From Escherichia coli (GTDB lineage Bacteria > Pseudomonadota > Gammaproteobacteria > Enterobacterales > Enterobacteriaceae), in the NCBI RefSeq assembly GCF_051903065.1, contig NZ_CP178438.1: a DNA stretch of 64,000 nt; one strand, given 5' to 3'. Made by a program: the position numbers and the translations under genes. Below the pieces are notes generated by a model. That model worked only from the letters and a program-made list of their open reading frames with translations, was not told where the DNA came from and did no database searches. Below are positions 9,082 to 15,435 of this stretch, one piece after another; the first letter of the stretch is position 1; each line of letters starts with the position of its first letter.

Positions 9082-9906
9082 TCAGGCGGTGAAAGTACCA
9101 ATAAAGGTTTCTACTTTGCTGTCCTTGAATTTCTCAACAAGCAGATCACGAAATTCGTTAGCCATTTCTTCCTGCACCGCCTCCAGCTGAATAATGCGCA
9201 GAACCAGTACAGGACGATCGCCAGTGATAATGCTGAGGCGTAATTTAAACGGACGTTCTTTCAGACCTTCAAACGGAACGCATTTAAATTCAAATGCCAC
9301 TGGCATAATGTCTTTGGTCTTCGCTTCGACAGACTCCATCAGGGAGCGTTTGCCGCTGAAGTCATTGTCTTCAAAATCAGCGGTCTGGTTCGCTTCAATT
9401 GTGATTTTACGGATCGCCGCAGCCGCTTTGGTTGCCTGAATGGCGTCACCATTAGCATCAAAGCCCACAAGGTAGTCTGCCCAGTCTTCAATCCATTCTG
9501 CCAGTGACTTCTGGGAGTTACGCTCGCCATTAACAGACAACAGAGCAGAGAACGGTGCTGTCTTTTTCAGTTTGAGAGTGGCGGTGTTATCTGCGTGACC
9601 TGGTTCATCAATAGTACCCAGGTTAAGCACACTGACGGCTCGCATATTATCGGCATCGATAAAGCAGCGGGTGCCTTCATCTGCAAGATCTTTAGAATAA
9701 CGGGTAAAGTCATCGATGCTGGCAGTGGAAAGTGCACCACGGAAACGGAAACGATTTAAATTAAATTTTTCCAGATCATGAATGCGGAAATTCTCAGGCA
9801 ATGCCACAGCATCGGCACCAATCTTACTGATAATTTCATTAACACCCTGAGCAGAAATAAGGGCATGGATTTGATTAATTGCGGTTGAGTCTAAGTTCTG
9901 AGACAT
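9082..9906 (-). CDS. DUF2303-like phage protein (YfdQ-like)
   Basis: 274 aa [21 protein letters not shown]...; recalled resemblance to CPS-53 yfdQ. Confidence 0.55.
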
Positions 9907-9971
9907 AATAAGTCCTCACTATATTAAGATATTCAGTGATGAGATAAATAATCAGTTAATTAAGAACGATA

Positions 9972-10334
9972 TTAATGACCTGCTGCGCGGAGTTTTCCGT
10001 CAGGTTCACCGGCAAGAGTCAGTAATTGTCCCTGGTCTTCCTGCAGAATAGTCAGGCGACCACCGCGATTGACATACATCGGCGTTTCGGTGGTGTCTTC
10101 TTCGGAAATTTTCCCGCGGTTAGTCGGGCGAACATATGAGAGTTTGTGTTTGATTTTCACACGGTTCTCATCAAATGGTTCGATTTCCAGGTTGAGTGAG
10201 ACCTTACCTTTGGTTTTCGTGTTCATCACACCGGAAGCGACTTCACTGAGAACTGCGCCGATTTTGGTTTCAAATACGCCGCCGTCCAGCTCCCCGATAA
10301 ATTCCTGCACGTTGGTACTGCGTTCGCTAGCCAT
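9972..10334 (-). CDS. hypothetical phage early protein (120 aa, YfdP-like)
   Basis: Real start taken at the internal Met (MASERSTNVQEF...) preceded by GAGGAG; the track ORF was extended upstream across a hairpin region. Confidence 0.55.
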   Translation of the reverse strand: MASERSTNVQEFIGELDGGVFETKIGAVLSEVASGVMNTKTKGKVSLNLEIEPFDENRVKIKHKLSYVRPTNRGKISEEDTTETPMYVNRGGRLTILQEDQGQLLTLAGEPDGKLRAAGH

Positions 10335-10942
10335 TTTGCTGCTCCTCATCATATCGACCCTGCAAGGTCGGTTGGTTTCTCCACAAAACAGAGAAGAACA
10401 CCTGCGGTGGTAGCCGCCCGGATGGATTGGGTTATGAGCCCGTCGTCCGGTGATGCTCTTCTCTGTTTTGTAAAAAGAGCGGTACCAGCCGGAAGCAAGT
10501 GTACAAACTGGTACCGCCAAAGCAGTGGCTGTTGTGGTGGGGTTGTCACTCAGGCGTATGGTCAACCTGACAATCCGGTGTCCTCAACGGGGAAAGAGTA
10601 ACCCCGCCATACTTACCGCCGCGCCATTTCGCGGATTACCACAACGCTGAGAGCACTTAGCCAGTTACGGCACCACACTTTGTCGAGGTTCCATAAATGC
10701 CCTCATCGTTGCACCCTGGTCTCTTCCCAGGCGTCAAACCGAATCGCCACGCTGGTTAGGCGTCTTATCAGCATCCTCATTGACTTGCACATTCCGGCTA
10801 CCTGGTTTGTTTGCCCGAGCAAGGAGTGGATTGTCCCCTTTAACGTCCCCAGACCGCTAACGACGCATGTGCCATACGCCGTGTTACAACCAAATTTTGT
10901 CAGGACCTTGTTTGTTGGTCTGGAAAGAAAGATAAAATGAAA

Positions 10943-10980
10943 TTGCGTAACGTGCAAGTATTTTATTGCGAGATATGCAA
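10943..10980. promoter_or_regulatory. putative OL operators / pL region
   Basis: Two TTGC-N7-GCAA palindromes (TTGCGTAACGTGCAA 10943-10957; TTGCGAGATATGCAA 10966-10980), the same motif as at the cI/cro intergenic region. Confidence 0.5.
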
Positions 10981-10994
10981 TAGTGTGAGTAATG

Positions 10995-11016
10995 AAAAGC
11001 CACCTTCTGGTGGCTA
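10995..11016 (-). terminator. terminator downstream of the repressor gene
   Basis: GCCACC-ttct-GGTGGC hairpin (11000-11015) followed by a U-run on the minus strand. Confidence 0.55.
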
Positions 11017-11036
11017 ATTGATGTTGAGGTAGGGGG

Positions 11037-11729
11037 TTAATTGTGTCGCTTAAGGGTTTGTGACTGACTGATTAAGACCTTTCCAAAGACCATAAACCGG
11101 TGTTCGTTTTCGCTGGTAATTCCCCATTCGCGGTAAATCTGATTATCAGAAATTACCAGCAGTTTATCAGGTATCATTTGCAGTCGTTTGACGTAAATTT
11201 TATCATCAAAACCAAATACATATATACCATCCCCATCAAACTGATTGATACTGATATCAACGAAGATGAGATCTCCTGGCTCAATGGTTGGACACATACT
11301 GTCCCCACGAACGTTGATAACTTTAATGTGATTTGCTGGTCGTCCACCAAACATCGATACAGCATTATCAGTTCTGTATTCAATGGCATGAATCACATCA
11401 ATGACATCACCGCCCTGGATAAGGCCATTTCCCGCACTGGCACTGACATCCAGCATTTCAATACGGAATACATCCTTCACCTGCGCAACATCCTCACTAA
11501 TACTGTTTTTACATACAGTATTACTTTTGAGGTCTGAGGTAAAGAGATCAGCAATATCAACACCTAAGCTCCTGGCAATATTACTCAGGGCTTGTTCAGT
11601 GAATTGTTTCTGCTTACCTGTTTCGAGGCGCGAGATATTCGCCGCATCCACTCCTATTGCTTCAGCGAGATCGGCGATTTTCATGTTCTTCGCCTGGCGA
11701 AGTTGTCTGACTCGATTTCCTATGTTCAT
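11037..11729 (-). CDS. CI-like prophage repressor (HTH_XRE + S24 LexA-like peptidase domain)
   Basis: 230 aa; N-terminal IGNRVRQLRQAKNMKIADLAEAIGVDAANISRLETGK (HTH); C-terminal ..VRGDSMCPTIEPGDLIFVD...KRL (Ser/Lys autocleavage-type motifs). Confidence 0.85.
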   Translation of the reverse strand: MNIGNRVRQLRQAKNMKIADLAEAIGVDAANISRLETGKQKQFTEQALSNIARSLGVDIADLFTSDLKSNTVCKNSISEDVAQVKDVFRIEMLDVSASAGNGLIQGGDVIDVIHAIEYRTDNAVSMFGGRPANHIKVINVRGDSMCPTIEPGDLIFVDISINQFDGDGIYVFGFDDKIYVKRLQMIPDKLLVISDNQIYREWGITSENEHRFMVFGKVLISQSQTLKRHN

Positions 11730-11826
11730 GCGTTTATTACATTTCTTTATTGCGCGTTAAGCAAATCAACTTGCGCAAAATATTTGCGTGAAATAATATG
11801 CTCATCACGCAATATGTGGAGGTTAT
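11730..11826. promoter_or_regulatory. divergent PRM/PR promoter-operator region
   Basis: TTGCGCGTTAAGCAA (11750-11764; TTGC-N7-GCAA), palindromic TTGCGCAA (11771-11778), inverted repeat TTGCGTGA...TCACGCAA (11784-11812); candidate PR -35 TTGCGC / -10 TAATAT with 17-bp spacing. Confidence 0.6.
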
Positions 11827-12087
11827 ATGCAATCACCATTACGGAATGTGCGTAAGGCGCACGGATTTACTTTGCAGCATGTTGCTGCGGGCGTTCAGGT
11901 CAATCCAGCGACGCTGAGTCGTATTGAAAGACTGGAACAAATTCCATCTATCGATCTTGCAGAACGTCTGGCCAATTTTTTTAAGGGTGAAATCAGCGAA
12001 ATGCAGATTCTTTATCCGGCACGTTTTCAATCTAGCCAAAACCAGAATGGGTTTAAACCACAGGAACAGGAGGTAAGCCGTGGGTAA
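11827..12087 (+). CDS. Cro-like HTH regulator
   Basis: 86 aa; GGAGG RBS; ..AHGFTLQHVAAGVQVNPATLSRIER.. HTH; divergent from the repressor gene. Confidence 0.75.
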   Translation: MQSPLRNVRKAHGFTLQHVAAGVQVNPATLSRIERLEQIPSIDLAERLANFFKGEISEMQILYPARFQSSQNQNGFKPQEQEVSRG

Positions 12088-12631
12088 GCATCATTGGAAA
12101 GTGGAAAAACAACCTGAGTGGTACGTGAAAGCTGTCAGAAAAACTATCGCGGCATTGCCAGGGGGTTACGCTGAAGCTGCTGACTGGCTGGATGTAACAG
12201 AGAACGCTTTATTCAACCGCCTTCGTGCAGATGGCGATCAGATTTTCCCGTTGGGATGGGCAATGGTTTTACAGCGTGCTGCTGGCAATCACCACATTGC
12301 GGATGCTGTCGCACAGTCTGCTGGTGGGGTGTTTGTATCACTTCCTGAAATTGAGGAAGTAGAGAACGCCGATATCAACCAGCGCCTGCTGGAGGTCATT
12401 GAACAGATCGGCAGTTATTCCAGACAGATTCGTTCAGCAATTGAAGACGGGGTGGTGGAACCACACGAGCAGGCAGCAATTAACGACGAGCTGTACATGT
12501 CAATTTCGAAGCTGCAGGAGCATGCAGCACTGGTCTACAAAATCTTTTGCGCTCCAGAAAAGAGTGACGCCCGCGAGTGTGCAGCTCCGGGCGCCGTGGC
12601 GTTTTGTGTCTGTGGAGAAACTAACGCATGA
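12080..12631 (+). CDS. hypothetical early protein (position of a CII-like regulator)
   Basis: 183 aa, GTG start with AGGAGG RBS, overlaps the cro stop; family not recognised. Confidence 0.45.
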
Positions 12632-12966
12632 ACAGTTTAACAACACACTACCGTCGCTCGCAACTGATTGCGCTTCCTGTACCGGGTGGAAAAGCGAAGG
12701 TGGAGTATTGCTATGCAGTGAATGTACCAGGTGACAGGGAAATTGTAACCCACAGCTTTGCAGAGTGGGCTGTGGGTGATTTCAACCGGCAGAAGGAGAC
12801 AGTCCTTTGCGACAAGTTAACCGCTGGTTCAAAGATCACTACGGAGTGCCCGTCAGAGTCATTCGTTGGGAGCCGGAAACACAACGGGTTATCTACCTCC
12901 GTGAAGGCTATGAACATGAATGCTTCAGTCCGCTCGAACAGTTTCGTCGTAAATTCAGGGAAATAG
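12628..12966 (+). CDS. hypothetical protein; an overlapping ORF in another frame (12807-13019) may represent a frameshift or second gene
   Basis: ATGA start-stop overlap with the upstream gene; the alternative frame looks more protein-like toward the 3' end. Confidence 0.3.
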
Positions 12967-14459: not shown

Positions 14460-15112
14460 TGAGTAATAAATATTGCCAGGAGCTGGTGGAACTGCGGAAC
14501 AAACCAGCCCATGAACTGAAGGAAGTGGGTGATCAGTGGCGCACGCCGGACAACATTTTCTGGGGAATTAACACCCTGTTTGGCCCGTTTGTTCTGGATC
14601 TGTTCACTGACGGTGATAACGCCAAATGTGCCGCGTATTACACGGCGGAAGACAACGCGCTGGCGCATGACTGGTCAGAACGCCTTGCGGAGCTTAAAGG
14701 TGCTGCCTTTGGTAATCCTCCATACAGCCGCGCCAGTCAGCATGAGGGGCAATACATCACCGGCATGCGTTACATCATGAAACATGCCAGTGCCATGCGT
14801 GATAAGGGCGGGCGCTATGTTTTCCTGATCAAAGCTGCCACCAGCGAAGTGTGGTGGCCGGAAGATGCAGATCATATTGCTTTTATTCGCGGGCGTATTG
14901 GTTTTGAACTGCCTGTCTGGTTTATCCCGAAAGACGAGAAGCAGGTACCGACAGGAGCTTTTTTCGCTGGTGCTATTGCTGTTTTTGACAAGACCTGGAA
15001 GGGACCGGCAATCAGCTACATCGGGCGCGATGAACTTGAGGCATGTGGTGAGGCGTTTCTGGCGCAGGTTCGCCAGCAGGCGGAAAAACTGGTCAGGGAG
15101 ATGGCGGCATGA
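14459..15112 (+). CDS. phage Dam-type N6-adenine DNA methyltransferase
   Basis: Start at the internal ATG overlapping the upstream stop (TAATG); catalytic ..AFGNPPYSRA.. (NPPY) motif. Confidence 0.7.
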   Translation: MSNKYCQELVELRNKPAHELKEVGDQWRTPDNIFWGINTLFGPFVLDLFTDGDNAKCAAYYTAEDNALAHDWSERLAELKGAAFGNPPYSRASQHEGQYITGMRYIMKHASAMRDKGGRYVFLIKAATSEVWWPEDADHIAFIRGRIGFELPVWFIPKDEKQVPTGAFFAGAIAVFDKTWKGPAISYIGRDELEACGEAFLAQVRQQAEKLVREMAA

Positions 15113-15435
15113 CGACATTAACTCAATGCCAGCAGCAGGTGCTGGATATGCTGATTTCTTATCAGAAAGAGCGTGGCTTTCCGCCAACCAATCAGGAGGT
15201 GGCAACCATGCTGGGATACCGTTCAGTGAATGCAGCGGTGGAGCATCTTCGCGCACTGGAGAAAAAAGGCGTCATCACGATAAAGCGTGGCGTGGCCCGG
15301 GGGATAACGCTTCATACCGCGGTGAAGGACGACGACAGCGAGGCGGTCGGGATTATCCGCGCACTGCTTGCCGGTGAGGAAAACGCAAGGCTGCGTGCAA
15401 CCCACTGGTTACATGAGAGGGACCTGAAAGTATGA
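15109..15435 (+). CDS. LexA N-terminal DNA-binding-domain-like protein lacking the peptidase domain
   Basis: 108 aa; MTTLTQCQQQVLDMLISYQKERGFPPTNQEVATMLGYRSVNAAVEHLRALEKKGVITIKRGVARGITL aligns by eye with host LexA residues 1-69 in this same window. Confidence 0.7.
   Translation: MTTLTQCQQQVLDMLISYQKERGFPPTNQEVATMLGYRSVNAAVEHLRALEKKGVITIKRGVARGITLHTAVKDDDSEAVGIIRALLAGEENARLRATHWLHERDLKV

What the first reader, a model, noticed from the sequence alone, without database searches (positions are those of the whole stretch)
10943..11826. Immunity region uses TTGC-N7-GCAA operators on both sides of the repressor gene
The same 15-bp dyad (TTGCGTAACGTGCAA, TTGCGAGATATGCAA, TTGCGCGTTAAGCAA) occurs twice left of the CI-like gene and once in the cI/cro intergenic region, alongside a palindromic TTGCGCAA and a longer TTGCGTGA/TCACGCAA inverted repeat. 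This defines the probable immunity specificity of the prophage.
Basis: seen in the sequence. Interest (0 to 1): 0.4.

Follow-up and report, generated by a model that had tools for sequence, protein, structure and literature searches.

The report
Operator sites of a prophage repressor
The repeated TTGC...GCAA dyads are almost certainly the DNA sites where this E. coli prophage's CI and Cro repressors bind: an ordinary lambda-style immunity switch of the mEp460/SfII type, for which I found no published operator sequence.

Summary
Exact TTGC-N7-GCAA dyads lie at 10943-57, 10966-80 and 11750-64. All three fall in the 198 nt of non-coding DNA flanking a CI-like gene (P about 8e-8).

The window is an E. 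coli lambdoid prophage integrated in dusA. Its immunity module matches mEp460, PhiR47_1, phi1720a-02 and SfII.

Evidence that the dyads are operators:
- Relatives with 96-68% identical CI keep the dyad arms at the same places while the central 5 bp vary.
- More distant repressors have different dyads of the same 15-bp geometry: ATGCG-N5-CGCAT in ENT47670 and ATGT-N7-ACAT in Fels-1.
- Heteroimmune phage cdtI replaces exactly 10901-12051 (dyads, cI, cro) with an unrelated cassette.

- A fourth site, ATGC-N7-GCAA at 11798-11812, overlaps the pR -10/+1. It is the real unit behind the "long inverted repeat", whose left arm is not conserved.
- TTGCGCAA is the pR -35.
- A fifth conserved dyad lies inside cro codons 8-12 (11848-62).

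Binding is inferred, not shown. Verdict: an ordinary lambda-type switch whose operator motif I found in no paper; low interest.

More intriguing is a side finding. An unannotated structured RNA at 10369-10520 (minus strand) carries a look-alike of the initiator-tRNA anticodon arm.

The parts
10901..12051 (.). Immunity cassette: pL, OL, cI terminator, cI, OR, pRM/pR and cro
   Evidence: Phage cdtI is 99% identical to the window at 10400-10900 and 93% identical at 12052-12641. Between these blocks it has no similarity and carries a different cI/cro with different dyads.
10943..10957 (.). OL1 operator, TTGCGTAACGTGCAA. It covers the predicted pL -35 and spacer.
   Evidence: Top weight-matrix score in the window, 19.0. 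Arms conserved and centre variable in relatives and across 26 haplotypes.
10966..10980 (.). OL2 operator, TTGCGAGATATGCAA, centred 23 bp from OL1
   Evidence: (score 18.6). The spacer to OL1 is 7-9 bp in relatives.
10929..10957 (-). Predicted pL: -35 TTGCAC (10957-10952), 17-nt spacer, -10 TATCTT (10934-10929)
   Evidence: Read from the sequence. AAGATA and TTGCxx are conserved in alignment A4. The consensus scan did not report it, so it is an inference.
10998..11015 (-). Intrinsic terminator after cI: GCCACC-AGAA-GGTGGC followed by a T run
   Evidence: SfII annotates the equivalent hairpin as a terminator.
11037..11729 (-). cI-like repressor, 230 aa, with an N-terminal HTH and a C-terminal S24 peptidase domain. 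Ala99-Gly100, Ser144 and Lys181 match the LexA pattern.
   Evidence: 100% identical to the cI of PhiR40_1, PhiR47_1 and phiSTEC1575-Stx2k, and 99.6% identical to that of mEp460.
11736..11764 (-). Predicted pRM: -35 TTGCTT (11764-11759), 17-nt spacer, -10 TGTAAT (11741-11736). The cI ATG lies 7 nt after the -10 with no Shine-Dalgarno sequence, so the mRNA is probably leaderless.
   Evidence: Read from the sequence. ATTACA and the distance to the ATG are conserved in 6 of 7 relatives. Inference.
11750..11764 (.). OR-left operator, TTGCGCGTTAAGCAA. It overlaps the pRM -35, in the manner of lambda OR3.
   Evidence: (score 16.7).
11764..11778 (.). Candidate weak middle site, AATCAACTTGCGCAA, centred at -42 of the predicted pRM. 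Only its right half resembles an operator arm.
   Evidence: Weight-matrix score 0.1, rank 199. Relatives have AAGC-N7-GCAA, and ENT47670 has AAGC-N7-GCAT, matching its own GCAT arms. Weak evidence.
11771..11799 (+).
   Evidence: Read from the sequence. CTTGCGCA is invariant and TAAYAT is conserved in alignment A3. The consensus scan did not report it. Inference.
11798..11812 (.). OR-right operator, ATGCTCATCACGCAA, covering the end of the pR -10 and the start site, in the manner of lambda OR1. Its first two bases are the last two of the -10.
   Evidence: one mismatch to the dyad; score 15.0, rank 5. ATGC-N7-GCAA sits at this place in all six relatives.
11827..12087 (+). cro-like gene, 86 aa, HTH_3 domain
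11848..11862 (.). Candidate fifth operator, GTGCGTAAGGCGCAC, inside cro codons 8-12 and starting 50 bp to the right of the start of OR-right
   Evidence: Weight-matrix rank 9 of about 64,000. Relatives have TTGCGRAAATCGCAW at the same place, so every one of six loci has a dyad there. Conservation of the encoded residues (L/V)RK(S/A)(H/Q) may account for part of this.

Best explanation
This is the immunity region of a lambdoid prophage, built like the lambda cI/cro switch. The 15-bp dyads, consensus (T/A)TGCG-N5-(C/T)GCAA, are the operators of the 230-aa CI repressor and probably also of the 86-aa Cro.

Left side. Two dyads lie just beyond the cI terminator. OL1 covers the -35 and spacer of the leftward early promoter pL, and OL2 is centred 23 bp further upstream of it. 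A pair of CI dimers there would shut off pL.

Right side. In the 97-nt cI/cro gap, one dyad covers the -35 of the cI maintenance promoter, whose transcript is probably leaderless. A second dyad (ATGC-N7-GCAA) covers the -10 and start of pR. CI bound there would block cro and the rightward early genes, and at high concentration CI would limit its own synthesis. A fifth conserved dyad inside cro codons 8-12 may add a downstream binding site.

Induction would follow RecA-stimulated self-cleavage of CI at Ala99-Gly100.

Shown here: the sites, their conservation, their co-variation with the repressor, and the exchange of the cassette as a block. Inferred: which protein binds which site, the promoter positions, and the order of occupancy.
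For: Gene content
- The cI-like protein has HTH and Peptidase_S24 domains. A divergent HTH_3 cro and a CII (CP76/YmfL) gene follow.

Clustering
- Three exact dyads fall in 198 nt of non-coding DNA where 0.008 are expected. Five relaxed dyads fall in 920 bp where 0.27 are expected.

Independent test
- A weight matrix from other phages' sites ranks the four window sites 1, 2, 3 and 5 of 64 kb.

Conservation across relatives
- SfII (CI 96%), ST64B-like (84%), Klebsiella Kp4874-4 (71%), and Flotzy and phiNP (68%) each carry the relaxed dyad at the same five positions. Five of these six loci, counting the window, have no other match; SfII has one extra in 5.7 kb. The arms are invariant and the centres differ.

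Variation among prophages with the same repressor
- In 26 OL haplotypes from prophages with 99-100% identical CI, 3 of 20 arm columns are polymorphic against 9 of 10 centre columns (P = 1.3e-4).

Co-variation with the repressor
- ENT47670 (CI 50%) has ATGCG-N5-CGCAT and Fels-1 (52%) has ATGT-N7-ACAT, at equivalent places.

Block exchange
- Heteroimmune phage cdtI replaces exactly 10901-12051.

Induction
- phi1720a-02, whose CI is 98.3% identical, needs RecA for induction.
Against: - There is no binding or footprint data for this repressor. I found none in the literature and no close solved structure.
- Over the whole window the exact dyad is not enriched, and one equally good match lies in host dinF.
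- No convincing middle operator exists between the two right-hand sites. They are centred 48 bp apart, so lambda-style OR1-OR2 cooperativity and activation of pRM cannot be assumed.
- The consensus scan did not report the promoters proposed here. It offered other weak candidates instead.
- CI and Cro show no detectable sequence similarity in their HTH regions, so shared site use is an assumption.
- phiNP has the same arms, yet its host could still be lysogenized by phi1720a-02. This argues that the arms alone do not set specificity.
Confidence: 0.85

Rival explanations
1. The right-hand region is a true lambda-like three-operator array. A weak OR2 at 11764-11778 would be filled cooperatively and would activate pRM from position -42.
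For: The right half, CGCAA, is invariant. The last base changes to T in ENT47670, whose operators end in GCAT, and Klebsiella, Flotzy and phiNP have AAGC-N7-GCAA. The centre lies at -42 of the predicted pRM start, which is where lambda OR2 sits (established knowledge of lambda).
Against: The weight-matrix score is 0.1, rank 199. The site overlaps OR-left by one base, with centres 14 bp apart. The conserved bases are also explained by the pR -35 hexamer. The co-variation rests on a single lineage.
Confidence: 0.3
2. The functional unit next to cro is the long inverted repeat TTGCGTGA-N13-TCACGCAA (11784-11812), acting as one large operator or as a hairpin in the pR leader or the DNA.
For: The 8-nt arms are perfectly complementary in the window and in nearly all prophages with the same CI.
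Against: In SfII the right arm is ACGCGCAA. In the ST64B-like, Klebsiella, Flotzy, phiNP and ENT47670 relatives the left arm is absent, while ATGC-N7-GCAA is kept. Most of the repeat lies upstream of the predicted pR start, so it would not be in the transcript.
Confidence: 0.05
3. The dyads are bound by a protein other than CI: Cro only, the CII/YmfL-like activator, or a host factor that recognises GCAA/TTGC-type sites.
For: No binding data assign the sites to CI. Host operators containing TTGC/GCAA exist, for example the PurR box (recalled from memory). CGCAAAATATTTGCG at 11774-11788 looks superficially similar to it.
Against: The dyads travel with the cI/cro cassette and are replaced together with it in cdtI, whereas the cII-like gene stays. 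They change when the CI HTH changes. The everted dyad 11774-11788 is not conserved in relatives and has different spacing from a PurR box.
Confidence: 0.07
4. The repeats are a by-product of three promoters whose -35 hexamers all happen to be TTGCxx in AT-rich DNA. They are not protein-binding dyads.
For: The predicted -35 elements of pL, pRM and pR are TTGCAC, TTGCTT and TTGCGC.
Against: This does not explain three things: the conserved partner arm exactly 7 nt away, the existence of OL2, OR-right and the cro-internal dyad, or the switch to ATGCG/CGCAT and ATGT/ACAT in relatives.
Confidence: 0.03

Closest known systems
Phage lambda immunity region (cI-OR-cro with OL, pL, pR, pRM)
   Same: Both have divergent cI and cro genes, and a CI with an HTH domain and a self-cleaving S24 domain. 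In both, dyad operators overlap pL, pR and pRM, and the cI message from the maintenance promoter is probably leaderless. The cassette is exchangeable as an immunity block.
   Different: Here the operators are 15 bp with TTGC/GCAA arms, against lambda's 17-bp sites (established knowledge). Each side has two clear sites rather than three, and the right-hand sites are centred 48 bp apart. An extra dyad lies inside cro. OL sits immediately after the cI terminator, with no rex genes. No N gene is evident; a roughly 600-nt untranslated leader follows pL.
434 and P22 c2 repressor/operator systems (HTH_3-type repressors)
   Same: All have short conserved outer arms contacted by the recognition helix and a variable centre. 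In 434 and P22 the centre tunes affinity by indirect readout (established knowledge). The CI N-terminal domain here gives a weak match to a 434-derived domain, dh434.
   Different: The arm sequences and spacing differ: ACAA-N6-TTGT for 434 (from memory) against TTGC-N7-GCAA here. Protein similarity is marginal (E = 2e-4).
Immunity group of mEp460, PhiR40_1/PhiR47_1/PhiR55_1, phiSTEC1575-Stx2k, phi1720a-02, Stx2a_1447/WGPS2 and SfII, with ST64B Sb38 as the Salmonella relative
   Same: The window's CI is 100-96% identical to the E. coli and Shigella members and 84% identical to ST64B Sb38. The same dyads sit at the same places.
   Different: There is no difference in kind; the window is simply another member. 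I found no paper that writes down these operators.
Stx phages 933W and H-19B
   Same: These are lambdoid switches that depart from the three-plus-three operator rule. 933W has three OR and two OL sites, and H-19B has four OR sites (review PMC8065619). The two OL sites and the extra right-hand site seen here therefore have precedents.
   Different: The repressors and operator sequences are unrelated, and those sites were mapped experimentally.
Repressors of Fels-1 and Cronobacter phage ENT47670
   Same: Their CI proteins are 52% and 50% identical to the window's. They use the same 15-bp 4-N7-4 geometry and the same placement around cI and cro.
   Different: The arms differ: ATGT/ACAT in Fels-1 and ATGCG/CGCAT in ENT47670. 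Site numbers and spacers also differ, for example abutting OL sites in ENT47670 and three OR sites in Fels-1.

Membership tests
Lambdoid CI/Cro immunity switch | Divergently transcribed repressor and cro genes separated by a short control region | tested here: met
   cI lies at 11037-11729 on the minus strand and cro at 11827-12087 on the plus strand, with a 97-nt gap.
Lambdoid CI/Cro immunity switch | Repressor with an N-terminal HTH and a C-terminal LexA-like (S24) self-cleaving domain, including the Ala-Gly site and the Ser/Lys dyad | tested here: met
   Pfam assigns HTH_3/HTH_26 and Peptidase_S24, E = 6e-19. Ala99-Gly100, Ser144 (in GDSM) and Lys181 (in VKRL) were read from the translation. 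Ser and Lys are 37 residues apart, as in LexA (from memory).
Lambdoid CI/Cro immunity switch | Repeated dyad-symmetric operators overlapping pR/pRM and, on the far side of cI, pL | tested here: met
   There are four strong dyads plus one candidate. Their overlap with the predicted promoter hexamers is conserved in relatives. The promoters are predicted, not mapped.
Lambdoid CI/Cro immunity switch | Repressor and Cro physically bind the operators, with ordered affinities | not testable with these tools
   This needs gel-shift or footprint experiments. None were found in the literature searched.
Lambdoid CI/Cro immunity switch | The immunity determinant behaves as an exchangeable cassette between otherwise homologous phages | tested here: met
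   cdtI shares both flanks (99% and 93% identity) but replaces 10901-12051.
Lambda paradigm in the strict sense (three adjacent operators at OR and at OL) | Three operators per side at spacings of about 23-24 bp, allowing pairwise cooperativity | tested here: not met
   OL has two sites centred 23 bp apart. OR has two strong sites centred 48 bp apart, and the middle candidate scores 0.1. Departures of this kind are known from 933W and H-19B.
mEp460/SfII/phi1720a-02 immunity type | Near-identical CI, Cro and control DNA | tested here: met
   DNA identity is 97-98% over 10400-12641 to PhiR47_1 and mEp460, and CI identity is 99.6-100%. Cross-immunity itself was not tested.

The most novel reading that the evidence does not exclude
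The right-hand control region may not be a compressed lambda-type OR. It may instead be a stretched array of three operators about five helical turns apart: 11750, 11798, and 11848 inside cro codons 8-12. This array is conserved in six diverged phages. It would work through short DNA loops or a downstream roadblock.

On this reading, immunity specificity would lie not in the shared TTGC/GCAA arms but in the hypervariable 'uncontacted' centre and in positions 5 and 11. That would explain how phages with the same arms, such as phi1720a-02 and phiNP, can coexist in one host.
Probability: 0.2. Interest if true: 0.45.

Novelty: new member of a known kind. Interest (0 to 1): 0.2.

Why it matters
This immunity type is common. 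About 995 of 5,426 complete E. coli genomes carry at least 80% of the 10400-12700 stretch. It also occurs in Stx2-converting phages, in Shigella serotype-converting phage SfII and, in diverged form, in Salmonella ST64B.

Knowing the operator motif and the promoter layout has practical uses:
- predicting which prophages exclude one another
- designing reporters for induction of Stx phages
- annotating a region that current records leave blank or fill with doubtful small ORFs

Conceptually it adds nothing new to the lambda paradigm.

Tried and rejected
- Window-wide enrichment of the exact dyad is not significant. Only the clustering is.
- One-mismatch searches are uninformative window-wide: 31 matches against 28 expected.
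- The everted dyad CGCAAAATATTTGCG (11774-11788) has attractive 24/24-bp spacing, but relatives do not conserve it.
- The half-site at 11784 (TTGCGTGA) and the long inverted repeat are conserved only in the closest kin.
- The pRM-like hit of the promoter scan (TCCACA-16-TATTAT, 11820-11793) looks like a by-product of the AT-rich pR -10. A leaderless pRM with a conserved TGTAAT fits better.
- Rfam searches of 9800-12200 and 10300-10940 found nothing relevant.
- ARAGORN found no tRNA in 9800-11100.
- Literature searches found no description of operators. I searched for the operator sequences, motif notations, mEp460, ST64B/Sb38 and e14/ymfK.
- A PDB sequence search gave only remote HTH and UmuD matches.
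- I suspected that K-12 pawZ was the leader RNA. It is a 15-bp pseudogene elsewhere in CPS-53.
- The 2004 paper on the 933W operators could not be opened, so I used a review instead.

Full report
**What is there**

- TTGCGTAACGTGCAA at 10943-10957
- TTGCGAGATATGCAA at 10966-10980
- TTGCGCGTTAAGCAA at 11750-11764
- TTGCGCAA at 11771-11778
- TTGCGTGA at 11784-11791, facing TCACGCAA at 11805-11812

The gene between the two groups (11037-11729, minus strand) encodes a 230-aa protein with an N-terminal Cro/C1-type HTH and a C-terminal Peptidase_S24 domain. To its right lie a divergent 86-aa HTH_3 protein (11827-12087) and a CII/CP76 (YmfL) protein (12080-12631). The translation shows Ala99-Gly100, Ser144 in GDSM and Lys181 in VKRL. 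This is the LexA/lambda CI self-cleavage pattern (established knowledge).

**Is it more than chance?**

Over 64 kb the exact dyad TTGC-N7-GCAA occurs 6 times against 2.55 expected, and 7 of 100 shuffles do as well. The motif as such is therefore not enriched. One equally good copy lies in the host gene dinF, at 1433.

The clustering is the signal. Three copies fall in the 198 non-coding nucleotides that flank cI, where 0.008 are expected (P = 8e-8). Five copies of the relaxed form DTGC-N7-GCAH fall in 10943-11862, where 0.27 are expected (P = 1e-5).

As a test free of circularity, I built a weight matrix from the sites of five other phages only. In the window it ranks 10943, 10966, 11750 and 11798 as numbers 1, 2, 3 and 5 of about 64,000 positions.

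**Where the window comes from**

The stretch 10400-12700 is 100% identical to the chromosome of E. coli MB53. About 995 complete E. coli genomes carry at least 80% of it. The prophage sits in dusA, next to host lexA-dinF-zur.

Among phages the stretch is:
- 97-98% identical to PhiR47_1, PhiR40_1, PhiR55_1, phiSTEC1575-Stx2k and mEp460
- 95% identical to phi1720a-02 and Stx2a_1447
- 91% identical to Shigella phage SfII

The CI protein is 100-96% identical in these phages. It is 84% identical in Salmonella ST64B (Sb38), 71% in a group of Klebsiella phages, 68% in Flotzy and Citrobacter phiNP, and 52% and 50% in Fels-1 and Cronobacter ENT47670.

**Comparative evidence for operators**

SfII, an ST64B-like phage, Kp4874-4, Flotzy and phiNP each carry the relaxed dyad at the same five places as the window. 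Four of these five loci have no other match; SfII has one extra in 5.7 kb. The five places are two beyond the cI terminator, two in the cI/cro gap and one inside cro. Alignments A3 and A4 show invariant TGC(G) and (C)GCA islands separated by five variable bases.

Prophages with 99-100% identical CI show the same pattern:
- The OL side has 26 haplotypes. Only 3 of 20 arm columns vary, against 9 of 10 centre columns (Fisher P = 1.3e-4). The centres even vary more than the flanks (P = 0.004).
- The OR side is almost invariant.

With more distant repressors the motif changes but the geometry stays: ATGCG-N5-CGCAT in ENT47670 and ATGT-N7-ACAT in Fels-1.

The heteroimmune phage cdtI is 99% identical to the window at 10400-10900 and 93% identical at 12052-12641. 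It replaces 10901-12051 with an unrelated cI/cro pair that has dyads of the type GTAY-N7-RTAC. The dyads thus belong to an exchangeable immunity cassette, as in classical lambda/434/21 hybrids.

1. The right-hand region has a second strong operator, ATGCTCATCACGCAA (11798-11812). All relatives have ATGC-N7-GCAA there. The initial A-T doubles as the end of a conserved -10 hexamer (TAATAT or TAACAT).
2. The 'longer inverted repeat' is not a unit. Its left arm is missing in the 84-68% relatives, and its right arm is altered in SfII.
3. TTGCGCAA contains the invariant hexamer TTGCGC, placed 17 nt upstream of that -10. It is best read as the pR -35.
4. GTGCGTAAGGCGCAC (11848-11862, cro codons 8-12) is a conserved fifth dyad, TTGCGRAAATCGCAW in relatives. 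It ranks 9th in the window. Conservation of the encoded residues may contribute, so I call it a candidate.

**Proposed mechanism (inferred)**

| Promoter | -35 | Spacer | -10 | Relation to operators |
|---|---|---|---|---|
| pL | TTGCAC, 10957-10952 | 17 nt | TATCTT, 10934-10929 | OL1 covers the -35 and spacer; OL2 lies 23 bp upstream |
| pRM | TTGCTT, 11764-11759 | 17 nt | TGTAAT, 11741-11736 | Overlapped by OR-left |
| pR | TTGCGC, 11771-11776 | 17 nt | TAATAT, 11794-11799 | OR-right covers the end of the -10 and the start site |

- The cI ATG lies 7 nt downstream of the pRM -10, and there is no Shine-Dalgarno sequence. This suggests a leaderless message, as for lambda cI.
- CI would repress pL and pR, and would limit its own synthesis at OR-left.
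- Cro presumably uses the same sites, although its HTH shows no detectable sequence similarity to that of CI.
- RecA-dependent induction is documented for phi1720a-02, whose CI is 98% identical.
- A lambda-like OR2 is not evident. The candidate at 11764-11778 scores 0.1, though its right half co-varies with the operator type in ENT47670.
- The two strong right-hand sites are centred 48 bp apart, and the cro-internal dyad lies 50 bp further on.

**A caveat on 'defines the immunity specificity'**

Repressors down to 68% identity share the arms. phiNP resides in C. rodentium DBS100, and phi1720a-02 was able to lysogenize that strain. This hints that the two phages are heteroimmune despite having the same arms. 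If so, positions 5 and 11, the centre, or the site arrangement must contribute to specificity.

**Comparison with what is known**

This is a member of the lambdoid CI/Cro switch class.
- The operators resemble those of 434 and P22 in logic: short conserved arms and a variable centre.
- Departures from three-plus-three operators are documented for 933W (three OR, two OL) and H-19B (four OR).
- I found no paper containing these operator sequences or the motif, no operator description in papers on SfIV/SfII, mEp460 or phi1720a-02, and no close solved structure.

The finding is therefore a new, as yet undescribed member of a well-known kind. It is useful for annotation and for predicting immunity, but it is not surprising.

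**Side finding**

Between pL and the first leftward gene (yfdP, start 10334) lie about 600 nt without a credible ORF.

The part at 10369-10520, read on the minus strand, folds far better than shuffles (z = -5.8). It is conserved in phages whose immunity regions differ. An alignment of 27 sequences below 95% identity supports a structure with three parts:
- a long stem (17 predicted pairs; inverted-repeat arms of 25 nt)
- two apical branches
- a closing helix

In this alignment 97% of cells are paired, against 45-56% when the pairing partners are slid. There are 53 compensatory cells against 4-11 in the slid controls. The G-U pairs fit only the minus strand.

One branch contains CGGGCUCAUAACCC. 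This is identical over 14 nt to the anticodon stem-loop of E. coli tRNA-fMet, with its three G-C pairs and the loop CUCAUAA (sequence in PMC8887418). The stretch is nearly invariant in 222 instances that I collected through the neighbouring segment alone.

Other observations on the element:
- A hairpin followed by a U-run precedes it (10479-10517).
- Different genes follow it in different phages.
- It occurs in 2,491 of 5,426 complete E. coli genomes and none of the 30 records listed annotates it as RNA.
- It is absent from Rfam.
- No paper I could search contains its core sequence.
- SfII annotates it as a protein. tblastn matches that protein on both strands, which is an artefact of the palindrome.

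Its function is unknown. Possibilities include an RNase III or translational control site for the early-left operon, or a mimic of the initiator-tRNA anticodon arm.

Noticed in passing
window 10369-10520, minus strand (core GACGGGCTCATAACCCAATCC at 10424-10444): An unannotated, conserved, structured RNA element lies in the pL leader just upstream of yfdP. It has a long stem (17 predicted pairs; 25-nt inverted-repeat arms) with two apical branches, and it folds far better than shuffles (z = -5.8). In 27 diverged sequences 97% of cells are paired, against 45-56% in slid controls, and there are 53 compensatory cells. One branch matches the anticodon stem-loop of E. coli initiator tRNA-fMet over 14 nt (CGGGCUCAUAACCC). 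The element is absent from Rfam, and no paper I could search holds its core sequence. It occurs in 2,491 of 5,426 complete E. coli genomes. Different first genes follow it in different phages..
   Followed up: partly
window 10479-10517, minus strand: A GC-rich hairpin (GGCGGUACCAG...CUGGUACCGC) followed by CUUUUU lies about 410 nt downstream of the predicted pL and directly before the structured element. It looks like an intrinsic terminator in the early-left leader. Other phages keep a hairpin plus U-run there with different stem sequences. In the consensus fold the U-run pairs with GGAGAAA at the 3' end of the structured element..
   Followed up: partly
window 10335-10935: About 600 nt between pL and the first leftward gene have no credible ORF, and no N-like gene is evident. 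RefSeq leaves the stretch unannotated. mEp460, SfII and cdtI records place small hypothetical ORFs in it, which are probably spurious. The upstream 410 nt are not significantly structured (z = -1.5)..
   Followed up: partly
window 10948-10952 and 10971-10975 (centres of OL1 and OL2): Among prophages with 99-100% identical CI, the five central bases of the OL operators are more polymorphic (9 of 10 columns) than the neighbouring non-operator DNA (12 of 33 columns; P = 0.004). The OR region is almost invariant. This may reflect tuning of operator affinity or recombination between alleles..
   Followed up: partly
window 4759-4863 and 1-4700: The prophage is inserted in dusA: a truncated tRNA-dihydrouridine synthase fragment lies at its left end. 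This matches the dusA integration reported for phi1720a-02. Host genes dgkA, lexA (166-774), dinF, yjbJ, zur and a frameshifted DUF2713 gene fill the first 4.7 kb of the window..
   Followed up: no
window 5117-5689 and 5719-6105: At the left end of the prophage, RefSeq annotates a Panacea domain-containing protein followed by a small hypothetical protein. Panacea domains are known from toxin-antitoxin pairs (from memory), so this may be an accessory defence or addiction module..
   Followed up: no
window 15109-15435: The prophage encodes a second, short 'LexA family protein' (S24-like) in the rightward early operon, between an N-6-adenine methyltransferase and RusA. I did not examine its role..
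   Followed up: no
window 1433-1447: TTGCGGAATATGCAA, inside the host gene dinF, scores as well as the true operators (16.5). It lies outside the prophage and is consistent with the chance expectation of about 3 hits scoring 12 or more per 64 kb..
   Followed up: yes
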